From an uncultured Mariniplasma sp. (GTDB taxonomy: Bacteria > Bacillota_I > Bacilli_A > Acholeplasmatales > Acholeplasmataceae), in the NCBI GenBank assembly GCA_964553665.1, contig CAZKLF010000002.1:5100-69099 (forward strand): a stretch of 64,000 bases of DNA, in the 5' to 3' direction. The position numbers and the translations under genes are program-made. Below the pieces are notes generated by a model that ran no database searches, had not been told where the DNA came from, and saw only the letters and a list, made by a program, of their open reading frames with translations. This document shows positions 2,684-19,289 of the stretch, in pieces (positions within the stretch are counted from its first letter, which is position 1; every line of letters starts with the position of its first letter).

Positions 2684-4324
2684 GTGCAAAATAACAATCG
2701 CAACAACCATAAAAGACATAGTTATGATACTGATAACATTCTTAATGCAACACTCGTAACAGCTAAAATTATTATTTTTTATATATTTATTGGATTCGCC
2801 TGGATTCTTGCATCAGATTATTTTGTGAATTTGTTATTCACTGATCCAAATCAAGTTATCAGAGTACAAAGTATTAAAGGTATTTTATATGTGATAATAA
2901 CTGCAGTAATATTTTATTTTATCATTCACAAGAGCATGCGTATGTATATTGAACTTATAAGCGATTTGAAAATTACATATAAAAATTTAGATTTAAGCTA
3001 TCAAAAAACTCTAGAGTTGGATGATAAATTATTTCAATTAGCTTATTATGATTTGTTAACAGGCCTTCCAAATAAAGTATTATTAGAAAAAACTATAACT
3101 CAATATATTGGTGATCATCCAGATGATGGCATCGTTGGGTTTATTTATTTTGATATCGATGAATTTAGCAACATAAATGAGGTAAAAGGACATTCTGTAG
3201 GAGATCAATTACTGATTCAAATCGCAAAAAGTTTAAGTCAAGATATTGAAGCACCGAATATGTTAGCTAGAATTGGTGGCGATGAATTTGTTCTTGCATT
3301 ATTCAGCATGAATCAACTCGAAACTTTCATTCCACAAGTTGAACATTATATTGATACAATTAGAAAAATATTTATATTAGAAAAAGATGAGTTTTTTGTG
3401 ACATATAGCGTCGGTGTTGCTCTTTATCCTGATAATGGCAAAGATTATATTACTCTATTGAGACATGCTGATGCAGCACAATCAATCGCCAAATCTAAGG
3501 GAAAAGATCAAATTGTAATCTTCGATGATGAAATGGTTTCAATAATTAGGCAACAAACTGAACTCATTGCTCAATTAAGAAAAGCCATAGGAAATCAAGA
3601 ATTTTCTTTGCACTACCAACCGATTATAGACCTTAAAACAGACCAATCAATTGGCGTTGAAGCATTAATTCGTTGGCAGCATCCAACAAAAGGATTTATT
3701 CCCCCTTTAGAGTTTATTTCAATTTCAGAGAAAAACGGATACATTAAAGAGATTTCAGAGTGGGTATTTAAAGAGGTAGCTGAGCAATATGAGACATGGA
3801 ATGTAGAAGGTAAACAGTTTAGAATTGCAATCAATATTTCAGCAATAATGCTGATGTATGATCCATTTATACCTTATATGAACGAGTGGATAAACACGTA
3901 TCATTTAGATAGTTCAAGAATTGTATTAGAAATCACTGAATCCGCAATTATTGAAGATATTGAGAAAAGTATCCATGTTATTCATCAATTGAAAAAACTT
4001 GGTTTTATTGTTGCTTTAGATGATTTTGGTACTGGATATTCTTCTTTAACATATTTACAGAAATTGCCTATTGATATTATAAAAATAGATAGAGGCTTTA
4101 TTAGTAATATCAAACCGAACACAGAAGAGTTTTATGTTTTAAGATATATGATTGAATTAGCACATCATTTGAATTTGCTTGTTGTTGCAGAAGGAATTGA
4201 AACAATTGAACAAGCAAATATGGTTAAAAAGTATGATGTAGATTTAGCTCAAGGTTACTTTTTCTGTAGACCAATGCCTCAAACGAGAGTCGTTGAATAT
4301 TTAAAAGAAACGGATAGAAACTGA
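2684..4324 (+). CDS. Membrane-anchored GGDEF-EAL protein (diguanylate cyclase/phosphodiesterase)
   Basis: 2 N-terminal TM; YYDLLTGLPN, RIGGDEF, GVEALIRW, EITES, DDFGTGYSS; GTG start at 2684 follows GGGGTG RBS (track start 2660). Confidence 0.93.
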   Translation: MQNNNRNNHKRHSYDTDNILNATLVTAKIIIFYIFIGFAWILASDYFVNLLFTDPNQVIRVQSIKGILYVIITAVIFYFIIHKSMRMYIELISDLKITYKNLDLSYQKTLELDDKLFQLAYYDLLTGLPNKVLLEKTITQYIGDHPDDGIVGFIYFDIDEFSNINEVKGHSVGDQLLIQIAKSLSQDIEAPNMLARIGGDEFVLALFSMNQLETFIPQVEHYIDTIRKIFILEKDEFFVTYSVGVALYPDNGKDYITLLRHADAAQSIAKSKGKDQIVIFDDEMVSIIRQQTELIAQLRKAIGNQEFSLHYQPIIDLKTDQSIGVEALIRWQHPTKGFIPPLEFISISEKNGYIKEISEWVFKEVAEQYETWNVEGKQFRIAINISAIMLMYDPFIPYMNEWINTYHLDSSRIVLEITESAIIEDIEKSIHVIHQLKKLGFIVALDDFGTGYSSLTYLQKLPIDIIKIDRGFISNIKPNTEEFYVLRYMIELAHHLNLLVVAEGIETIEQANMVKKYDVDLAQGYFFCRPMPQTRVVEYLKETDRN

Positions 4325-4352
4325 TTATAATATATAATGAATTAAATATAAC

Positions 4353-14561: not shown

Positions 14562-14635
14562 GGCCTCATAGCCAAGTGGTAAGGCAAGGCACTGCAACTG
14601 CCTGACCATCGGTTCAAATCCGTTTGAGGCCTCCA
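14562..14635 (+). tRNA. tRNA-Cys(GCA)
   Basis: GGCCTCA/TGAGGCC acceptor stem, U73, encoded CCA, AGGCA-CT GCA AC-TGCCT anticodon arm, GGTTCAAATCC T-arm; 74 nt. Confidence 0.97.
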
Positions 14636-14646
14636 TATAACAATGC

Positions 14647-14680
14647 AACACTCAATCATCTGGTTGAGTGTTTTCTTTTT
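14647..14680 (+). terminator. Terminator after tRNA-Cys
   Basis: AACACTCAA-tcatctgg-TTGAGTGTT plus T run. Confidence 0.85.
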
Positions 14681-14845
14681 AAGAAATCAATTCGTTAGTA
14701 AACAATAAAAAAAATATGACATAAACAATTCAATGATGTATCAAAAAGACTCTCTAATGAGATTTCAATTTCCTTTTATAAGGCTTTTGCTATATAATAG
14801 AGGTATCAATTTGATATAAATTAAAATTAAAAATAGGAGAAAAAA

Positions 14846-15748
14846 ATGGAAAAAACAGATTATAAAATTGCATTAATGATTGATTCGGAGAATGTGTCAT
14901 ACAAATATATTAAATCAGTCATGAATGAGATTGCTAAATATGGGAAGATAGTCATTGCTAGATTTTATGGGGATATATATAATCTTTCGAAAGATTGGCA
15001 CAAAACAGCGCAAGATTATGCAATTAAACCAGTTCATCAATACAACGTAGCTATTGGGAAGAATGCTGCAGATATGGCTATGGCCCTTGATGCTCAGGAA
15101 ATGATGTATCAAGAAAAGGTTAATACTTTCTTTTTAGTAACGAGTGATAGCGATTTTACACCACTTGCTATGAAATTAAAAGAAGGCGGCATGCATGTTA
15201 TTGGAGTAGGTAATGAAAAAAAGGTTACATCAGCATTTAAATCGGCATGCAATGAGTTCAAGTACTTTGAATATTTGGATGATGAAGATAGCAATGAAAA
15301 AGAAGATAATTCAGTTATTGAAAGTCAAGAAATAGGGAATAGTATTAAAAATATTATTATTGAAAACGGTGTAGATAATAAGATTCAATTAAGTAGATTA
15401 GGTGATATTCTTGTCAATCGTTTTTCAGATTTTGATTCACGAAAGTATGGCGCTAAAAGTCTATCTAGTTTAGTAACAACAATCAGTGGATTATCCATCT
15501 CACTTGAAAAGACAACTACGTATGTTACTTTGAATTCGAAAATCTCGATGAATGATGTTTCTAAAACAATAACATCAATCATCTTAAAAAACAAAAGTAA
15601 GGAAATGATGCTTACAAAAATTAAACAAGAGTTAGAAAAAATATTTCCAGATTTTAATTATCAAGAGCTAGGTTTTACGCGCTTTAGTAAGCTTGTTGGA
15701 AGTATTGACTCTGTAACTGTTAAAAATAATGCAGCAAAGATTAAATAA
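14846..15748 (+). CDS. NYN-domain ribonuclease with two OST-HTH/LOTUS domains
   Basis: IALMIDSENV, GKNAADMAMALDA, TSDSDFTPLAMKLKEGG NYN acidic motifs; FSDFDSRKYGAKSLSSLV and FPDFNYQELGFTRFSKLV LOTUS repeats. Confidence 0.9.
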   Translation: MEKTDYKIALMIDSENVSYKYIKSVMNEIAKYGKIVIARFYGDIYNLSKDWHKTAQDYAIKPVHQYNVAIGKNAADMAMALDAQEMMYQEKVNTFFLVTSDSDFTPLAMKLKEGGMHVIGVGNEKKVTSAFKSACNEFKYFEYLDDEDSNEKEDNSVIESQEIGNSIKNIIIENGVDNKIQLSRLGDILVNRFSDFDSRKYGAKSLSSLVTTISGLSISLEKTTTYVTLNSKISMNDVSKTITSIILKNKSKEMMLTKIKQELEKIFPDFNYQELGFTRFSKLVGSIDSVTVKNNAAKIK

Positions 15749-16083
15749 TGAAGACGTTTGATATAAAATCAGATATGCCGTTAGTTTCTGTTGCAGGAAC
15801 AAGACTTGCTAATATTATTAGATCATGCAATGGGAAAGATAAGGTCATTAAGATTATCCATGGATATGGATCATCTGGGACTGGTGGTTCAATTAAGAAA
15901 TCCGTTCATGCTTCATTAAGAACTAGAGTTAGACAAGGAACAATTAAGGCATATATACCAGGTGAAGCATTTGCACAACCTATGGGATTTGATGAGATTA
16001 TTCACACATATAGCAATCTTCTTAAGTCAGATTCAGATTATAGGAAAGCTAATGATGGTATCACATATATAATATTAAAATAA
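15748..16083 (+). CDS. Stand-alone Smr (small MutS-related) domain protein
   Basis: DIKSDMP...VIKIIHGYGSSGTGG...N.GITYIIL Smr-like pattern; TAATG coupling to NYN gene. Confidence 0.8.
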   Translation: MKTFDIKSDMPLVSVAGTRLANIIRSCNGKDKVIKIIHGYGSSGTGGSIKKSVHASLRTRVRQGTIKAYIPGEAFAQPMGFDEIIHTYSNLLKSDSDYRKANDGITYIILK

Positions 16084-16099
16084 AAGGAAGAACTACTTT

Positions 16100-16558
16100 A
16101 TGAAAAAAGAACTTGGATATAAATCTATATCTGAAATTGTTGCAACTATCGTCATTCTAATCATATCAATTGTAACGGCAATCTATATTTTAATTTATTA
16201 TGATTTTTCGTTGATTTTGATTGATAGGGCAATACTGGTTATATTAGTGGTTATTGTTTTAATTATTGTTGTATCAGTTATGCAGTTGCTTCTGCTTAAT
16301 TCAAATCCGAAAATCATGATTGAATATGATGATTTGAATATCTATTATTATAAAGGTAATCGGTCTTCAAAAATAATTGCATTCGCTGATATCCAAAATA
16401 TTTATACAAAAACAAGTATTTGGACGAAACCTTTCGTAGTATATACCGCAATTGTTATTGTTACACAAAATGAAACGTATTATTTAAGACATATGACAAA
16501 AATGAATGAAGTACAAGAATTTATTCAAAATATAGCATATCATGAAGATCAGAAGTAG
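16100..16558 (+). CDS. 2-TM membrane protein with cytoplasmic beta-rich (PH-like) domain
   Basis: Two long hydrophobic segments then IAFADIQNI...IVIVT..ETYYL; AAGGAAG RBS. Confidence 0.7.
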   Translation: MKKELGYKSISEIVATIVILIISIVTAIYILIYYDFSLILIDRAILVILVVIVLIIVVSVMQLLLLNSNPKIMIEYDDLNIYYYKGNRSSKIIAFADIQNIYTKTSIWTKPFVVYTAIVIVTQNETYYLRHMTKMNEVQEFIQNIAYHEDQK

Positions 16559-16576
16559 GCCTAGCCTACTTTTTTT
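16553..16576 (+). terminator. Terminator ending NYN-Smr-membrane operon
   Basis: AAGTAGGC-cta-GCCTACTT plus T run. Confidence 0.8.
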
Positions 16577-16580
16577 GTAT

Positions 16581-16612
16581 AAAAAAAAGCCTTCTAATTA
16601 TTTTAGAAGGCT
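16581..16612 (-). terminator. Terminator for P-type ATPase
   Basis: AGCCTTCTAA-ttatt-TTAGAAGGCT preceded by A8 on + strand. Confidence 0.8.
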
Positions 16613-16622
16613 CATTTATTAT

Positions 16623-19289
16623 TTATTTTTTGAAAACTTTAGTTAGTTCAACAATTAACAATGGCAATAGAACAAGTACTAAGATAATTATCCATTGTAC
16701 CAACGAAGGCATAATGATTTTGAAGATATCCCTTGCAAATGGTAAACAAACGACGAGTAATTGTAAAGTAATACTGACAATAAGGGCATAAATAATATAT
16801 TTATTTCTAGCGAGTTTAAATGTAGAGCGTTTTTGACTTCTTACATTGAATGCATGAACTAATTGTGATAAAGCTAAGACGATAAAGGTCATTGTCTGTG
16901 CTGTAATCATTTTCATTGATACATCTGATGTCATAAACCAACCAATGATATAAGCGGTGAAAGCAATTAAACCTAGCATCGCACCTTGCCATGCTATTTT
17001 TTTACCTAATCCATCAGCAAATATTGATTGATTGCTATTTCTTGGTTTTTCTTTCATAATATCTTTTTCTTTAGGATCTAAACCAAGTGCAATTGCCATT
17101 AATGAATCTGTAACAAGATTGACCCAAAGAATTTGAACAGCAGTTAGGGTTGTAACTCGAGTACTAAAGATTAATATACCAATGGTTGTTCCTAAGAATA
17201 TAACAAGAATTTCACCAATGTTACAGGAAAGAAGGAAATGAATAGCCTTTTTAATGTTAGAGAAGATTGTTCGCCCTTCGCTAACAGCATTGACTATTGT
17301 TGAAAAGTTATCATCAGTTAGAATCATATCAGCTGCTCCTTTAGCAACTTCGGTGCCAGTAATACCCATAGCAATTCCAATATCAGCTTTTTTAATTGAT
17401 GGTGCATCATTAACACCATCACCTGTCATTGCAACAACATGCCCTGATTTTCGCCAAATATCTACGATGCGAACCTTATTTTCTGGGCTTACCCTTGCAT
17501 AAACGCGAATTTTATCATATTTTTCTAAGAATTCTTCATCATTCATTTGATCTAGATCATGACCAGTAATTGCTAAGTCGTCTGATTTAAGTATTGCTAA
17601 ATCCTTAGCTATTGCAACTGCAGTATTGATGTGATCGCCAGTAATCATGATTGTTTTAATACCTGCTTGATCGCATAAAGCAATAGAATCTTTAACCTCG
17701 GGTCTTGCTGGGTCAATCATGCCAACTAGTCCAAGTAGTGTTACATCATGTTCTAACTCAAGATTACCAAGTGATTTTAACTCGATATTCGAGTCGATTT
17801 TTTTATATGCAACAGCTAAAACTCTAAGTGCTTGATTTGACATGTCTTGATTTGCTTTATCAAATTCACTAACATTTTTATTTGGTGAATTGTGAATGGC
17901 AGTCACTCTTTTAAATAAAACATCTGGAGCGCCCTTAATGATTGCGTATCTACCATCCTCAAAATCATGAACTGTTGTCATTAGCTTTCTTTCTGAATCA
18001 AAAGGTAATTCGTAGATTCTAGGGTATTTCTTTATGATATCAATTGGATTTTGTTTGATTGCTATTGATAAATCAGTGAAAGCAATTTCTGTAGGATCTC
18101 CTATTTTAATGTATTGACTATCTTTATATTGCAATTTAGTATCATTACATAAGGAACCATAGATACCTAACTTATTAAGAGCTGTGTTTTCTTCTATATT
18201 CGAATTAATGTCAATGAAACCACCATGTAAAAATACTTTTTTTACGGTCATTAGATTTTGAGTTAAAGTGCCTGTTTTATCTGAGCAAATAATACTTGTT
18301 GAACCTAATGTTTCAACAGCGGGGAGTGTTCTAATAATTGCTTGTTGTTTGACAAGATTTTGCATACCTAAGGCTAGTACGATAGTGATAATTGCTGGTA
18401 GACCTTCTGGAATGGCTGCAACCGCTAATGCAATTGAGGTTAATAAAGCTTCCTTCCATACTTCAAAGTCTGCACCACCACTAAATAGATAAGCTTCAAT
18501 AATTGTAATTAAAAATATAATAAGTGTAATGCCAAGTGCAATAAGAGCTAGGAGTTTACCTAGTTGACTCATGCTTTTTTGTAATGGTGTGAGTTCATCT
18601 TTTGTTTCATTAAGCATGGTCGCAATCTTACCGAGTTCGGTTTGCATACCTATTGAGATAATAACAGCAACGCCTCTACCATAAGTGACTACGGTTCCCA
18701 TAAAACCTAAGTTGATCCGATCGCCTAATGGAATATCAGATTCAACAAGTGAATCACTTGTTTTATATATGGGGGCTGCTTCACCTGTTAAAGTTGATTC
18801 GTCAATCTTTAGATTGATAGATTCTATAATCCTAACATCTGCAGGCACATAATCTCCTGCATCAAGAATTACAACATCACCAACAACTAAGTGTTTGACA
18901 TCTATCACAATATCTATGCCATCTCTTTTTACCTTTGCATGAGGAGATGACATCGCTTTAATAGAAGCAAGTGCTTTTTCTGCTTTAGATTCTTGAAATA
19001 ATCCCAAAAATGCATTTAATATAACGATGCCAATGATTAAAAAACCTTCAGCATAATCTCCCGTAACGAAAGATAAAACTGATGCACCGATTAAAACAAT
19101 AATCATAAAATCCTTAATTTGATCAATAAATTTTGAAAAAAGAGATTTTCCTTTAGCTTCATCTAATTGATTAGGGCCATGTGATAATAATCTACTTTCA
19201 GCTTCTATTACAGATAAGCCTTGCTCTATATTTGTTGAAACTAAAGATTCTATTTCCTTAACTGATAATTGATGCTTTTCTTTTTTCAT
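16623..19289 (-). CDS. Cation-transporting P-type ATPase (Ca2+-type, P2A-like)
   Basis: TGE, PEGL, CSDKTGTLT phosphorylation motif, KGAP, GDGVNDAP, NLVTD. Confidence 0.95.
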   Translation of the reverse strand: MKKEKHQLSVKEIESLVSTNIEQGLSVIEAESRLLSHGPNQLDEAKGKSLFSKFIDQIKDFMIIVLIGASVLSFVTGDYAEGFLIIGIVILNAFLGLFQESKAEKALASIKAMSSPHAKVKRDGIDIVIDVKHLVVGDVVILDAGDYVPADVRIIESINLKIDESTLTGEAAPIYKTSDSLVESDIPLGDRINLGFMGTVVTYGRGVAVIISIGMQTELGKIATMLNETKDELTPLQKSMSQLGKLLALIALGITLIIFLITIIEAYLFSGGADFEVWKEALLTSIALAVAAIPEGLPAIITIVLALGMQNLVKQQAIIRTLPAVETLGSTSIICSDKTGTLTQNLMTVKKVFLHGGFIDINSNIEENTALNKLGIYGSLCNDTKLQYKDSQYIKIGDPTEIAFTDLSIAIKQNPIDIIKKYPRIYELPFDSERKLMTTVHDFEDGRYAIIKGAPDVLFKRVTAIHNSPNKNVSEFDKANQDMSNQALRVLAVAYKKIDSNIELKSLGNLELEHDVTLLGLVGMIDPARPEVKDSIALCDQAGIKTIMITGDHINTAVAIAKDLAILKSDDLAITGHDLDQMNDEEFLEKYDKIRVYARVSPENKVRIVDIWRKSGHVVAMTGDGVNDAPSIKKADIGIAMGITGTEVAKGAADMILTDDNFSTIVNAVSEGRTIFSNIKKAIHFLLSCNIGEILVIFLGTTIGILIFSTRVTTLTAVQILWVNLVTDSLMAIALGLDPKEKDIMKEKPRNSNQSIFADGLGKKIAWQGAMLGLIAFTAYIIGWFMTSDVSMKMITAQTMTFIVLALSQLVHAFNVRSQKRSTFKLARNKYIIYALIVSITLQLLVVCLPFARDIFKIIMPSLVQWIIILVLVLLPLLIVELTKVFKK

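What the first reader, a model, noticed from the sequence alone, without database searches (positions are those of the whole stretch)
14846..16576. Three-gene NYN-LOTUS RNase + Smr nuclease + 2-TM protein operon beside tRNA-Cys
Two unrelated predicted RNA-cleaving domains are translationally coupled (TAATG). A membrane protein follows 16 bp later and a single terminator closes the unit, directly downstream of a tRNA gene (a common insertion hotspot). NYN-LOTUS proteins are RNA-binding RNases, and Smr domains cut mRNA at stalled ribosomes. Nuclease + nuclease + membrane protein suggests an undescribed RNA-surveillance/ribosome-rescue or anti-phage module. I know of no named system with this composition.
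Basis: partly seen in the sequence, partly recalled or inferred. Interest (0 to 1): 0.62.

Follow-up and report, generated by a model that had tools for sequence, protein, structure and literature searches.

The report
Conserved NYN-LOTUS RNase and Smr-like pair
The three genes are real, but only the first two, an RNA-cutting NYN-LOTUS enzyme and a small Smr-fold protein without the usual catalytic histidine, stay together in related bacteria, at a fixed chromosomal site that looks like RNA housekeeping rather than anti-phage defence.

Summary
tRNA-Cys is followed by three tightly packed plus-strand genes closed by a terminator.

- **ORF1** is a clear NYN + 2x LOTUS protein with all catalytic Asp residues intact.
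- **ORF2** has a Smr fold but scores below Pfam's cut-off. Its family lacks the DxH catalytic motif (D/N-x-K/E instead) and keeps an extended HGYGSxGxGG loop.
- **ORF3** is a 2-TM protein with a PH-like domain.

The locus is core-syntenic in a Peloplasma-like Acholeplasmataceae genus: LMW-PTP, tRNA-Cys, NYN-LOTUS, Smr, a variable slot, then the hydrogenase operon.

- NYN-LOTUS and Smr are adjacent in about 31 of 33 genus genomes that have both.
- A sister genus has them adjacent in the swapped order, 5 of 5.
- ORF3 follows directly in only three genomes. Elsewhere DUF3137 or CorA fills the slot.
- Outside this lineage, 0 of 67 Smr-like loci have NYN nearby.
- In the Acholeplasma vituli genus the Smr-like gene follows PNPase in 7 of 8 genomes.
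- There are no PADLOC hits, mobility genes or GC anomaly.

Best reading: a vertically inherited two-gene RNA-turnover unit, with a probably non-catalytic Smr partner and an active NYN RNase. A role at the ribosome is speculative. Defence is unlikely.

The parts
14562..14635 (+). tRNA-Cys (GCA). A conserved upstream neighbour with its own promoter and terminator. It is context, not part of the operon.
   Evidence: ARAGORN and Rfam at 61 bits. The same tRNA sits upstream of NYN-LOTUS in 10 related loci.
14647..14672 (+). Intrinsic terminator of the tRNA gene. It separates the tRNA from the operon.
   Evidence: 11-bp stem followed by a T-run.
14793..14798 (+). Probable -10 box (TATAAT) of the operon promoter, inside the conserved block TTTTGCTATATAATAGAGG.
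   Evidence: The block is conserved in the 5 closest genomes while the surrounding spacer diverges. Read directly from the sequence.
14835..14839 (+). Shine-Dalgarno AGGAG of ORF1, 6 nt before the ATG.
   Evidence: Sequence. (A/G)GGAG is conserved in the alignment.
14846..15748 (+). ORF1, a 300-aa NYN-LOTUS (LK-nuclease + OST-HTH) predicted endoribonuclease.
   Evidence: Pfam NYN at 5.4e-31 and OST-HTH at 2.2e-19. It is 70-92% identical across the genus. D13, D76, D101 and D103 are invariant.
14864..15262 (+). NYN nuclease domain (aa 7-139) with the motifs IDSEN, KNAAD and SDSDF.
15338..15541 (+). First LOTUS/OST-HTH-like stretch (about aa 165-232; the limits are approximate).
   Evidence: Pfam reports two OST-HTH stretches.
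15554..15727 (+). Second LOTUS/OST-HTH domain (aa 237-294).
   Evidence: Best Pfam stretch.
15748..16083 (+). ORF2, a 111-aa single-domain Smr-fold protein of a DxH-less subfamily marked by HGYGSxGxGG. It is translationally coupled to ORF1 (TAATG) and has no Shine-Dalgarno of its own.
   Evidence: AlphaFold pLDDT is 93. The best Foldseek hits are Smr domains of MutS2 and YdaL.
16100..16558 (+). ORF3, a 152-aa protein with two TM helices and a cytoplasmic PH-like (bPH) domain. It is a lineage-restricted passenger of the operon.
   Evidence: bPH_2 at E=0.006. The model has helices 11-33 and 43-68 plus a beta-sandwich and a C-terminal helix. Foldseek hits are PH-like, including 3dcx and 3b77. Only 18 close clusters are known.
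16551..16573 (+). Intrinsic terminator closing the plus-strand unit.
   Evidence: 10-bp stem plus a T-run.
16587..16613 (-). Terminator of the convergent P-type cation ATPase gene (16623-19289, minus strand).

Best explanation
This is a vertically inherited chromosomal operon. Its conserved core is two genes.

- **ORF1** is an active-looking NYN endoribonuclease with two LOTUS RNA-binding domains, the bacterial MARF1-like 'LK-nuclease + OST-HTH' type.
- **ORF2** is translated by coupling to ORF1. It is a one-domain Smr-fold protein that has lost the DxH catalytic motif but keeps, and extends, the HGxG loop. In MutS2 the DLR/HGxG residues are needed for ribosome binding, not cleavage.

I infer that ORF2 is a non-catalytic RNA- or ribosome-binding partner and that ORF1 supplies the cutting activity. 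Together they would act in ordinary RNA turnover or quality control.

ORF3 (2-TM + PH-like domain) is a recent tenant of a fast-changing slot behind the pair, and is co-transcribed only because of where it landed.

Shown: gene structure, domains, fold, residue conservation, synteny and the linkage statistics. Inferred: physical or functional partnership, RNA or ribosome targets, and the non-catalytic role of ORF2.
For: Domains and residues:
- NYN and LOTUS are well over Pfam cut-offs, and the four NYN Asp residues are invariant.
- ORF2 folds confidently (pLDDT 93) onto Smr domains: 4och, 9a5o_B, 3qd7, 3fau and 8qpp_W.
- Some family members pass the Pfam Smr cut-off, at 36.4 and 32.1 bits.
- Family motifs are D/N-[IL]-[KE] in place of DxH, with invariant H38-G-Y-G-S-x-G-x-G-G, IPGE and NxGxT.
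- PMC10897456 reports that DxH is needed for SMR cleavage. It also reports that DxH-less SMR domains such as B. subtilis MutS2 still bind collided ribosomes through DLR/HGxG.

Linkage:
- The pair is adjacent in about 31 of 33 genus genomes holding both, with 0-6 nt between the genes. All 5 genomes of a sister genus have the swapped order.
- The junction survived while the slot right behind it turned over: TM-bPH, DUF3137, CorA, P-ATPase.
- A second RNA-decay linkage exists. The Smr-like gene sits directly after pnp in 7 of 8 genomes of the A. vituli genus.

Core character:
- LMW-PTP, tRNA-Cys, NYN-LOTUS, then P-ATPase or NuoE are syntenic as far as Mariniplasma.
- The genes are single-copy and GC is flat.
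- Flanks are housekeeping genes and PADLOC finds nothing.
- NYN-LOTUS is among the most conserved genes of the region compared (70-92% identity, against 41-56% for LMW-PTP).
Against: - Neither gene needs the other. NYN-LOTUS orthologues occur without an adjacent Smr-like gene in Mariniplasma and four other genera. Strong Smr-like genes occur without NYN-LOTUS in the A. vituli genus.
- 0 of 67 Smr-like loci outside Acholeplasmatales have NYN within 4 kb.
- Two genus members (G003, G017) have both genes unlinked.
- Flanking genes are conserved over the same evolutionary depth, so adjacency could be inherited synteny without function.
- There are no expression, interaction or activity data.
- The invariant His, Glu and Gly-rich loop could mean that ORF2 is an enzyme after all.
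Confidence: 0.55

Rival explanations
1. The adjacency has no functional meaning. NYN-LOTUS is a standalone RNase, as proposed for the bacterial forms in 2010. The Smr-like gene is an unrelated small housekeeping gene that landed next to it in one ancestor and has been carried along in a compact genome.
For: - Anantharaman et al. 2010 found no conserved neighbourhoods for bacterial LK-nuclease + OST-HTH genes.
- Each gene occurs without the other in sister lineages.
- The Smr-like family has different, lineage-specific neighbours elsewhere: a pseudouridine synthase, UDG4, an acyltransferase, a GATase.
- The flanks are conserved over the same depth.
Against: - Start/stop overlap or a gap of at most 6 nt is kept in about 31 genomes.
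- Adjacency is retained after an order swap in a sister genus.
- The junction is stable next to a slot with at least four gene-content changes.
- ORF2 has no Shine-Dalgarno of its own.
- An independent linkage of the Smr-like gene to PNPase points to RNA decay.
Confidence: 0.3
2. It is an anti-phage or abortive-infection module. Two nucleases would degrade RNA on infection and a membrane protein would act as sensor or effector.
For: - The composition looks defence-like on paper.
- More distant NYN-LOTUS relatives (the P0239 type, 53% identical) sit beside variable defence-like cargo: PRTase-CE + reverse transcriptase, a giant helicase + Macro, and NERD proteins. They are always followed by a small membrane-anchored protein.
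Against: - No PADLOC hit for any of the three proteins.
- The genes are single-copy, near-universal in the genus and at a fixed site between core genes.
- No integrase, transposase or GC shift.
- The tRNA neighbour is ancestral.
- NYN-LOTUS is unusually conserved (70-92%), the opposite of fast-evolving defence genes.
- The membrane gene is not a stable member.
- The Smr-like protein lacks DxH.
Confidence: 0.05
3. It is a toxin-antitoxin pair, with a PIN-like NYN toxin neutralised by the small downstream Smr-like protein.
For: PIN-superfamily nucleases are common toxins, and the two genes are tightly coupled.
Against: - Single copy, a core position and vertical inheritance.
- NYN-LOTUS persists without the partner in several genera, and the Smr-like family is widespread without any NYN.
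- The order and sizes are atypical for VapBC-type systems.
Confidence: 0.03

Closest known systems
Bacterial 'LK-nuclease (NYN/DUF88, COG1432) + OST-HTH/LOTUS' proteins, the prokaryotic counterparts of eukaryotic MARF1/limkain-b1 (Anantharaman, Zhang and Aravind 2010, PMC2848206; Matelska et al. 2017, PMC5499597)
   Same: ORF1 has the same architecture, an N-terminal NYN domain with the full acidic set followed by LOTUS domains. The predicted role is an RNA-degrading enzyme whose LOTUS domains recruit substrate. Bacterial LOTUS domains bind G-rich/G4 RNA in vitro (PMC7498356).
   Different: The 2010 survey reported no conserved gene neighbourhoods. Here the gene is stably and translationally coupled to a Smr-fold gene in two genera. 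In a wider set of Acholeplasmataceae it is followed by DUF3137.
SMR-domain ribosome-collision factors: E. coli SmrB, yeast Cue2 and C. elegans NONU-1 (active, with DxH), and B. subtilis MutS2 (DLR, binds collided ribosomes but does not cut mRNA; PMC10897456)
   Same: ORF2 has the Smr fold and the HGxG motif. Like MutS2 and SmrA, it lacks the catalytic His of DxH.
   Different: - ORF2 is the bare domain of 111 aa. It has no SmrB-type N-terminal extension, no KOW domain and no MutS ATPase.
- The HGxG loop is lengthened to HGYGSxGxGG, and there are family-specific invariant IPGE and NxGxT motifs.
- It scores below the Pfam cut-off.
- The genome also encodes a canonical MutS2-Smr.
- Ribosome binding is untested.
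Rae1/YacP, the NYN-family endoribonuclease of B. subtilis that cuts mRNA on stalled or collided ribosomes and feeds trans-translation (PMC13622287)
   Same: It is a NYN-superfamily nuclease acting in translation-coupled mRNA surveillance in a Gram-positive lineage. That is the kind of role the pair here could have.
   Different: It belongs to a different Pfam family (PF05991, against PF01936 here) and has no LOTUS domains. PF05991 is absent from this genome and from all 301 sampled Acholeplasmatales. Nothing here shows ribosome dependence.
Bacterial PH-domain membrane proteins (bPH_2, YdbS/YdbT type, PF03703)
   Same: ORF3 has two N-terminal TM helices followed by a PH-like beta-sandwich and a C-terminal helix.
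   Different: The sequence match is below the cut-off, at 17.2 against 22 bits. The family is tiny and confined to close relatives.

Membership tests
NYN (PF01936) / LK-nuclease + OST-HTH | NYN domain match above Pfam's gathering score | tested here: met
   108.5 bits against a cut-off of 24.2, covering aa 7-139.
NYN (PF01936) / LK-nuclease + OST-HTH | Conserved acidic active-site residues of the PIN/NYN fold | tested here: met
   D13 (IDSEN), D76 (KNAAD) and D101 and D103 (SDSDF) are invariant in 12 relatives down to 50% identity.
NYN (PF01936) / LK-nuclease + OST-HTH | One or more OST-HTH/LOTUS domains C-terminal to the nuclease | tested here: met
   PF12872 at 69.5 bits against a cut-off of 23.8, in two stretches, the best at aa 237-294.
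NYN (PF01936) / LK-nuclease + OST-HTH | Endoribonuclease activity | not testable with these tools
   This needs an RNase assay with Asp mutants.
Smr domain (PF01713) | Sequence match above Pfam's gathering score | tested here: not met
   ORF2 scores 20.6 bits against 25.7. Relatives of the same subfamily do pass, at 36.4, 32.1, 27.7 and 26.6 bits.
Smr domain (PF01713) | Smr alpha/beta fold | tested here: met
   The model has pLDDT 93. Top Foldseek hits are 4och (TM 0.75 on the target), 9a5o_B (rmsd 2.2), 3qd7, 3fau and 8qpp_W. E-values are only about 0.05-0.3.
Smr domain (PF01713) | HGxG motif | tested here: met
   H38-G-Y-G41 is invariant and extended to HGYGSxGxGG. It aligns to HGKG of the T. 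thermophilus and D. radiodurans MutS2 Smr domains.
Catalytic Smr nucleases (SmrB/Cue2/NONU-1 type) | DxH motif at the start of the domain | tested here: not met
   ORF2 has D5-I-K7. The family has D/N-[IL]-[KE]. The requirement for DxH is as stated in PMC10897456.
Catalytic Smr nucleases (SmrB/Cue2/NONU-1 type) | Extra ribosome-recruiting element (SmrB N-terminal extension, KOW, CUE) | tested here: not met
   The whole 111-aa protein is the Smr domain. Some distant members carry Zn-ribbon extensions.
Known anti-phage defence systems (PADLOC-DB) | Significant match of any component to a defence-protein model | tested here: not met
   The best hits are E=0.011, none, and E=0.13.
Known anti-phage defence systems (PADLOC-DB) | Patchy, island-like distribution in a variable region | tested here: not met
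   The pair is at the same site between LMW-PTP/tRNA-Cys and NuoE in most of the genus. GC is normal and the flanks are housekeeping genes.
Type II toxin-antitoxin (PIN-like toxin) | Toxin never maintained without its cognate antitoxin; multicopy or mobile | tested here: not met
   NYN-LOTUS orthologues lack the partner in at least 5 genera. Both genes are single-copy.
bPH_2 (PF03703) | Match above the cut-off, or a PH-like fold behind two TM helices | tested here: inconclusive
   17.2 bits against 22. The fold is PH-like with Foldseek probability up to 1.0, but model pLDDT is only 76 and E-values are at least 0.026.

The most novel reading that the evidence does not exclude
The pair is a split collision-surveillance nuclease. 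[quoted passage not shown] It would deliver the coupled NYN-LOTUS RNase to cut the mRNA and feed tmRNA rescue.

This would stand in for Rae1, which is missing from all 301 sampled Acholeplasmatales. More broadly, the family of more than 1,100 HGYGSxGxGG Smr-like clusters would be a free-standing adaptor that different lineages pair with different RNA-decay enzymes: NYN-LOTUS here, PNPase in the A. vituli genus.
Probability: 0.15. Interest if true: 0.7.

Novelty: new variant of a known kind. Interest (0 to 1): 0.38.

Why it matters
Bacterial NYN-LOTUS proteins are widespread relatives of the animal germline factor MARF1. None has a known function or partner. The founding survey found no conserved neighbourhood for them.

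A stable, translationally coupled partner is a concrete handle for experiments, even if it holds in only two genera. The partner belongs to an uncharacterised, broadly distributed Smr subfamily. It is found in at least 516 species and 1,111 clusters at 50% identity. It lacks the catalytic DxH, and it sits next to RNA-decay genes in two separate lineages.

Recent work shows that Smr domains act as ribosome-collision sensors and that a NYN nuclease (Rae1) acts as a collision-dependent mRNA cutter. Against that background, this pair is a reasonable candidate for a new arrangement of that machinery in Rae1-less Mollicutes relatives.

For defence-system hunters the result is negative. 'Nuclease + nuclease + membrane protein next to a tRNA' is core synteny here.

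Tried and rejected
- **Defence module:** PADLOC gave nothing. Flanks are peptidases, SPFH, a transporter, LMW-PTP, a P-type ATPase and a hydrogenase operon. GC is flat.
- **tRNA insertion hotspot:** the same tRNA-Cys precedes NYN-LOTUS in 10 related loci.
- **Three-gene unit:** ORF3 homologues lie on other contigs in most of the genus at 35% identity. The slot holds DUF3137 or CorA instead. ORF3 is not related to DUF3137. This genome's only DUF3137 is a separate LemA-linked paralogue between metK and secA.
- **Wider NYN-Smr linkage:** 80 Smr-like loci from GTDB genomes gave NYN neighbours only in Acholeplasmataceae. Look-ups in Clostridia showed unrelated housekeeping neighbours.
- **Domain fusions of the Smr-like family:** only Zn-ribbons or unassigned N-termini, never NYN.
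- **Rae1 anticorrelation:** uninformative, because PF05991 is absent from the whole order.
- **Leader RNA:** Rfam finds only the tRNA.
- **PDB sequence search of ORF1:** gave no useful relative.
- **Complex prediction:** no tool was available.
Full report
**1. What is there**

The window carries tRNA-Cys(GCA) at 14562-14635. It has its own promoter-like site and its own terminator at 14647-14672. After a 173-nt spacer come three plus-strand ORFs:
- ORF1, 14846-15748, 300 aa, preceded by AGGAG.
- ORF2, 15748-16083, 111 aa. It overlaps ORF1's stop as TAATG and has no Shine-Dalgarno of its own.
- ORF3, 16100-16558, 152 aa, preceded by AAGGAAG.

A hairpin with a T-run at 16551-16573 closes the unit. 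A second hairpin at 16587-16613 serves the convergent P-type ATPase gene.

In the five closest genomes the spacer keeps a block, TTTTGCTATATAATAGAGG, with TATAAT at 14793-14798. This is the likely promoter. Rfam finds no leader element.

**2. The three proteins**

ORF1 is an unambiguous NYN + LOTUS protein.
- NYN scores 108.5 bits and OST-HTH 69.5 bits in two stretches.
- The acidic set D13, D76, D101 and D103 is invariant in relatives down to 50% identity.

ORF2 matches Pfam Smr only below the cut-off, at 20.6 against 25.7 bits from profile position 12 onward.
- A profile of 28 homologues finds the Smr domains of T. thermophilus and D. radiodurans MutS2 as best PDB sequences, at E of 0.02-0.04.
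- The AlphaFold model is confident, with pLDDT 93.
- The model superposes on Smr domains: 4och, B. subtilis MutS2 in 9a5o_B and 8qpp_W, E. coli YdaL in 3qd7, and human 3fau.
- Some longer family members pass the Pfam Smr cut-off.
- The family alignment shows invariant H38-G-Y-G-S-x-G-x-G-G, I70-P-G-E73 and N102-x-G-x-T. The N-terminal DxH of catalytic Smr domains is D/N-[IL]-[KE] instead, D-I-K in ORF2.
- According to PMC10897456, DxH is the part tied to mRNA cleavage in SmrB, Cue2 and plant SMRs.
- The same paper says loss of DxH is frequent. DxH-less domains such as B. subtilis MutS2 still bind collided ribosomes through DLR/HGxG without cutting.

So 'two RNA-cleaving domains' is probably one nuclease plus one binder.

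ORF3 has two TM helices and a PH-like domain.
- bPH_2 matches at E=0.006.
- The model has pLDDT 76.
- Foldseek hits are PH-like, including the bacterial 3dcx and 3b77.
- Its family is tiny, 18 clusters, all at least 52% identical.

**3. Whose genome, and is the locus an island?**

Homologue names and contig lengths place the genome in a GTDB genus that includes Peloplasma aerotolerans, family Acholeplasmataceae.

The Smr-like gene and NYN-LOTUS are single-copy. Each is present in 23 of 24 relatives in a first sample of the genus.

tblastn on the fetched loci gives a common order: LMW-PTP, tRNA-Cys, NYN-LOTUS, Smr, a variable slot, then the NuoE/hydrogenase operon. In Mariniplasma anaerobium, a different genus, the order is LMWPc, a PALP-family gene, NYN-LOTUS, DUF3137 and the same convergent P-type ATPase.

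The flanks in the window are peptidases, an SPFH protein, a transporter, LMW-PTP, the ATPase and a hydrogenase operon. GC is flat at 0.27-0.33. PADLOC finds nothing. The locus is core-syntenic, and the tRNA is an ancestral neighbour, not an insertion site.

**4. Which genes are really linked?**

I compared coordinates from two order-wide searches of 301 Acholeplasmatales genomes.

| Lineage | NYN-LOTUS and Smr-like |
|---|---|
| Own genus | Adjacent with 0-6 nt between them in about 31 of 33 genomes with both; unlinked in G003 and G017; a few genomes have NYN only or neither |
| Sister genus (g18) | Adjacent in all 5 sampled genomes, in the order Smr then NYN-LOTUS (also L031 and L032) |
| Mariniplasma and four other genera | NYN-LOTUS orthologue with no adjacent Smr-like gene |
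| Acholeplasma vituli genus | Strong Smr-like genes, mostly without a NYN-LOTUS orthologue |
| Outside the order | Family found in at least 516 species of many phyla and 1,111 clusters at 50% identity; 0 of 67 loci have NYN within 4 kb |

Outside the order the neighbours are lineage-specific housekeeping genes. Examples are an RsuA-type pseudouridine synthase, UDG family 4, an acyltransferase and a GATase.

ORF3 directly follows the pair only in G000, G022 and G018, and follows DUF3137 in G014 and G015. In other clades the slot holds DUF3137, CorA or both. The ORF3 homologue, at 35% identity, lies on another contig.

The conserved unit is therefore two genes, not three.

**5. Further association with RNA decay**

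In 7 of 8 genomes of the A. vituli genus, the Smr-like gene lies 50-85 nt downstream of pnp (PNPase) on the same strand. This is a second linkage of the family to an RNA-degrading enzyme, independent of the first.

In the eighth genome (G059), a NYN-LOTUS gene and the Smr-like gene bracket three co-directional genes that look inserted. Two of them appear NERD-like by their motifs (my reading of the sequences; no family search was run on them), and the third is a membrane protein with an N-terminal region that looks like an HTH.

Rae1/YacP is the NYN nuclease reported to cut mRNA on collided ribosomes in B. subtilis (PMC13622287). It is absent from this genome and from all 301 sampled Acholeplasmatales. 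A canonical MutS2-Smr is present.

In Synechocystis, a NYN/OST-HTH protein co-purified with the ribosome-associated Rbp3 (PMC12232666).

**6. Mechanism**

Best supported is a housekeeping bicistron for RNA turnover or quality control. ORF1 is the nuclease and its LOTUS domains select RNA. ORF2 is made by coupled translation and acts as a non-catalytic RNA- or ribosome-binding partner. ORF3 is a passenger.

Shown:
- The domains, the ORF2 and ORF3 folds and residue conservation.
- Start/stop coupling.
- The linkage counts and the synteny.

Inferred:
- Partnership between ORF1 and ORF2.
- The substrates.
- Lack of catalysis by ORF2.

The main rival is inherited adjacency without function (0.3). 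The arguments for it:
- Each gene occurs alone in sister lineages.
- The flanks are conserved to a similar depth.

The arguments against it:
- The junction stays stable beside a fast-changing slot.
- Adjacency survived the order swap.
- ORF2 has no Shine-Dalgarno of its own.
- The Smr-like gene is independently linked to pnp.

Defence (0.05) and toxin-antitoxin (0.03) fail their defining features.

**7. Comparison and novelty**

ORF1 is an ordinary member of the known 'LK-nuclease + OST-HTH' class. The founding paper reported no conserved neighbourhoods for that class (PMC2848206).

ORF2 belongs to an undescribed DxH-less, single-domain Smr subfamily. The lineage-specific coupling of the two does not appear in the papers I searched.

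I rate it a new variant of known kinds, with moderate interest. The boldest reading still open is a split, Rae1-replacing collision nuclease. I put it at about 15%.

**8. Limits**

- No complex prediction was available.
- Many of the genomes are incomplete metagenome-assembled genomes (MAGs), so the 'absent' calls are soft.
- The adjacency counts were read by eye from two coordinate tables.

Noticed in passing
L027:4001-5705 (Mariniplasma anaerobium); L030:3084-5167; L031; L032; L004; L006-L010: DUF3137, a 2-TM protein, is linked to NYN-LOTUS over a wider range than the Smr-like gene. It overlaps NYN-LOTUS in Mariniplasma. It follows Smr then NYN in the sister genus, and follows NYN then Smr in Peloplasma. 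The copy at this site has been lost in the window's clade.
   Followed up: partly
L017:20-1833; L111-L114, L116, L117: In the Acholeplasma vituli genus the Smr-like gene sits 50-85 nt downstream of the PNPase gene on the same strand, in 7 of 8 genomes.
   Followed up: yes
L118-L121 (metagenome contigs); L115:582-4761 (G059): A NYN-LOTUS subtype 53% identical to ORF1 (P0239) occurs as the same exact protein on 15 contigs. It is always followed after 10 nt by a 122-aa beta-rich protein with a C-terminal TM helix. Variable defence-like cargo comes next: PRTase-CE + reverse transcriptase, or a 1601-aa DEAD/UvrD helicase + Macro. In G059 the cargo is two proteins with N-terminal TM helices that look NERD-like by their motifs (no family search run). 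This subtype may border or belong to a variable island.
   Followed up: partly
L029:4862-5833; L115:1473-2330; L120:1107-1475; L027:4890-5705: The gene directly after NYN-LOTUS in four different Acholeplasmatales lineages encodes a membrane-anchored protein of a different kind each time: a TM Endonuclease_1, a TM protein that looks NERD-like, a 122-aa TM protein, and DUF3137. This is a post-hoc observation with no explanation yet.
   Followed up: no
L045, L061, L062 and other Clostridia loci (Smr-like gene at 4001-4333): In Oscillospirales-type Clostridia the Smr-like gene is flanked by a divergent S4 + pseudouridine synthase (RsuA/RluB type) and a family-4 uracil-DNA glycosylase, in 11-13 loci. 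Matelska et al. noted NYN-Udg4 operons elsewhere.
   Followed up: partly
P0269, P0272 (Smr-like relatives): Some members of the HGYGSxGxGG Smr-like family carry one or two N-terminal zinc-ribbons. Others have long N-termini that match no family, up to 590 aa in total.
   Followed up: partly
whole order Acholeplasmatales (301 genomes): The Rae1/YacP NYN nuclease family (PF05991) is absent from every sampled genome of the order.
   Followed up: yes
G013:C10:17513-18256: In one genus member the NYN-LOTUS match covers only residues 55-300, inside a 484-aa open frame. This could be an N-terminal replacement, a fusion or an assembly artefact.
   Followed up: no
L014:876-1490 (G003): Where the Smr-like gene is unlinked from NYN-LOTUS in G003, it follows a 204-aa protein with a weak PD-(D/E)XK nuclease match, E=5e-4.
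   Followed up: no
G000:C10:18830-19231 (L110): The window genome's only DUF3137 gene lies between metK and a 184-aa ORF that looks like LemA (from memory; not scanned), next to secA. I treated it as a paralogue separate from the NYN-linked copy without comparing the two sequences.
   Followed up: partly
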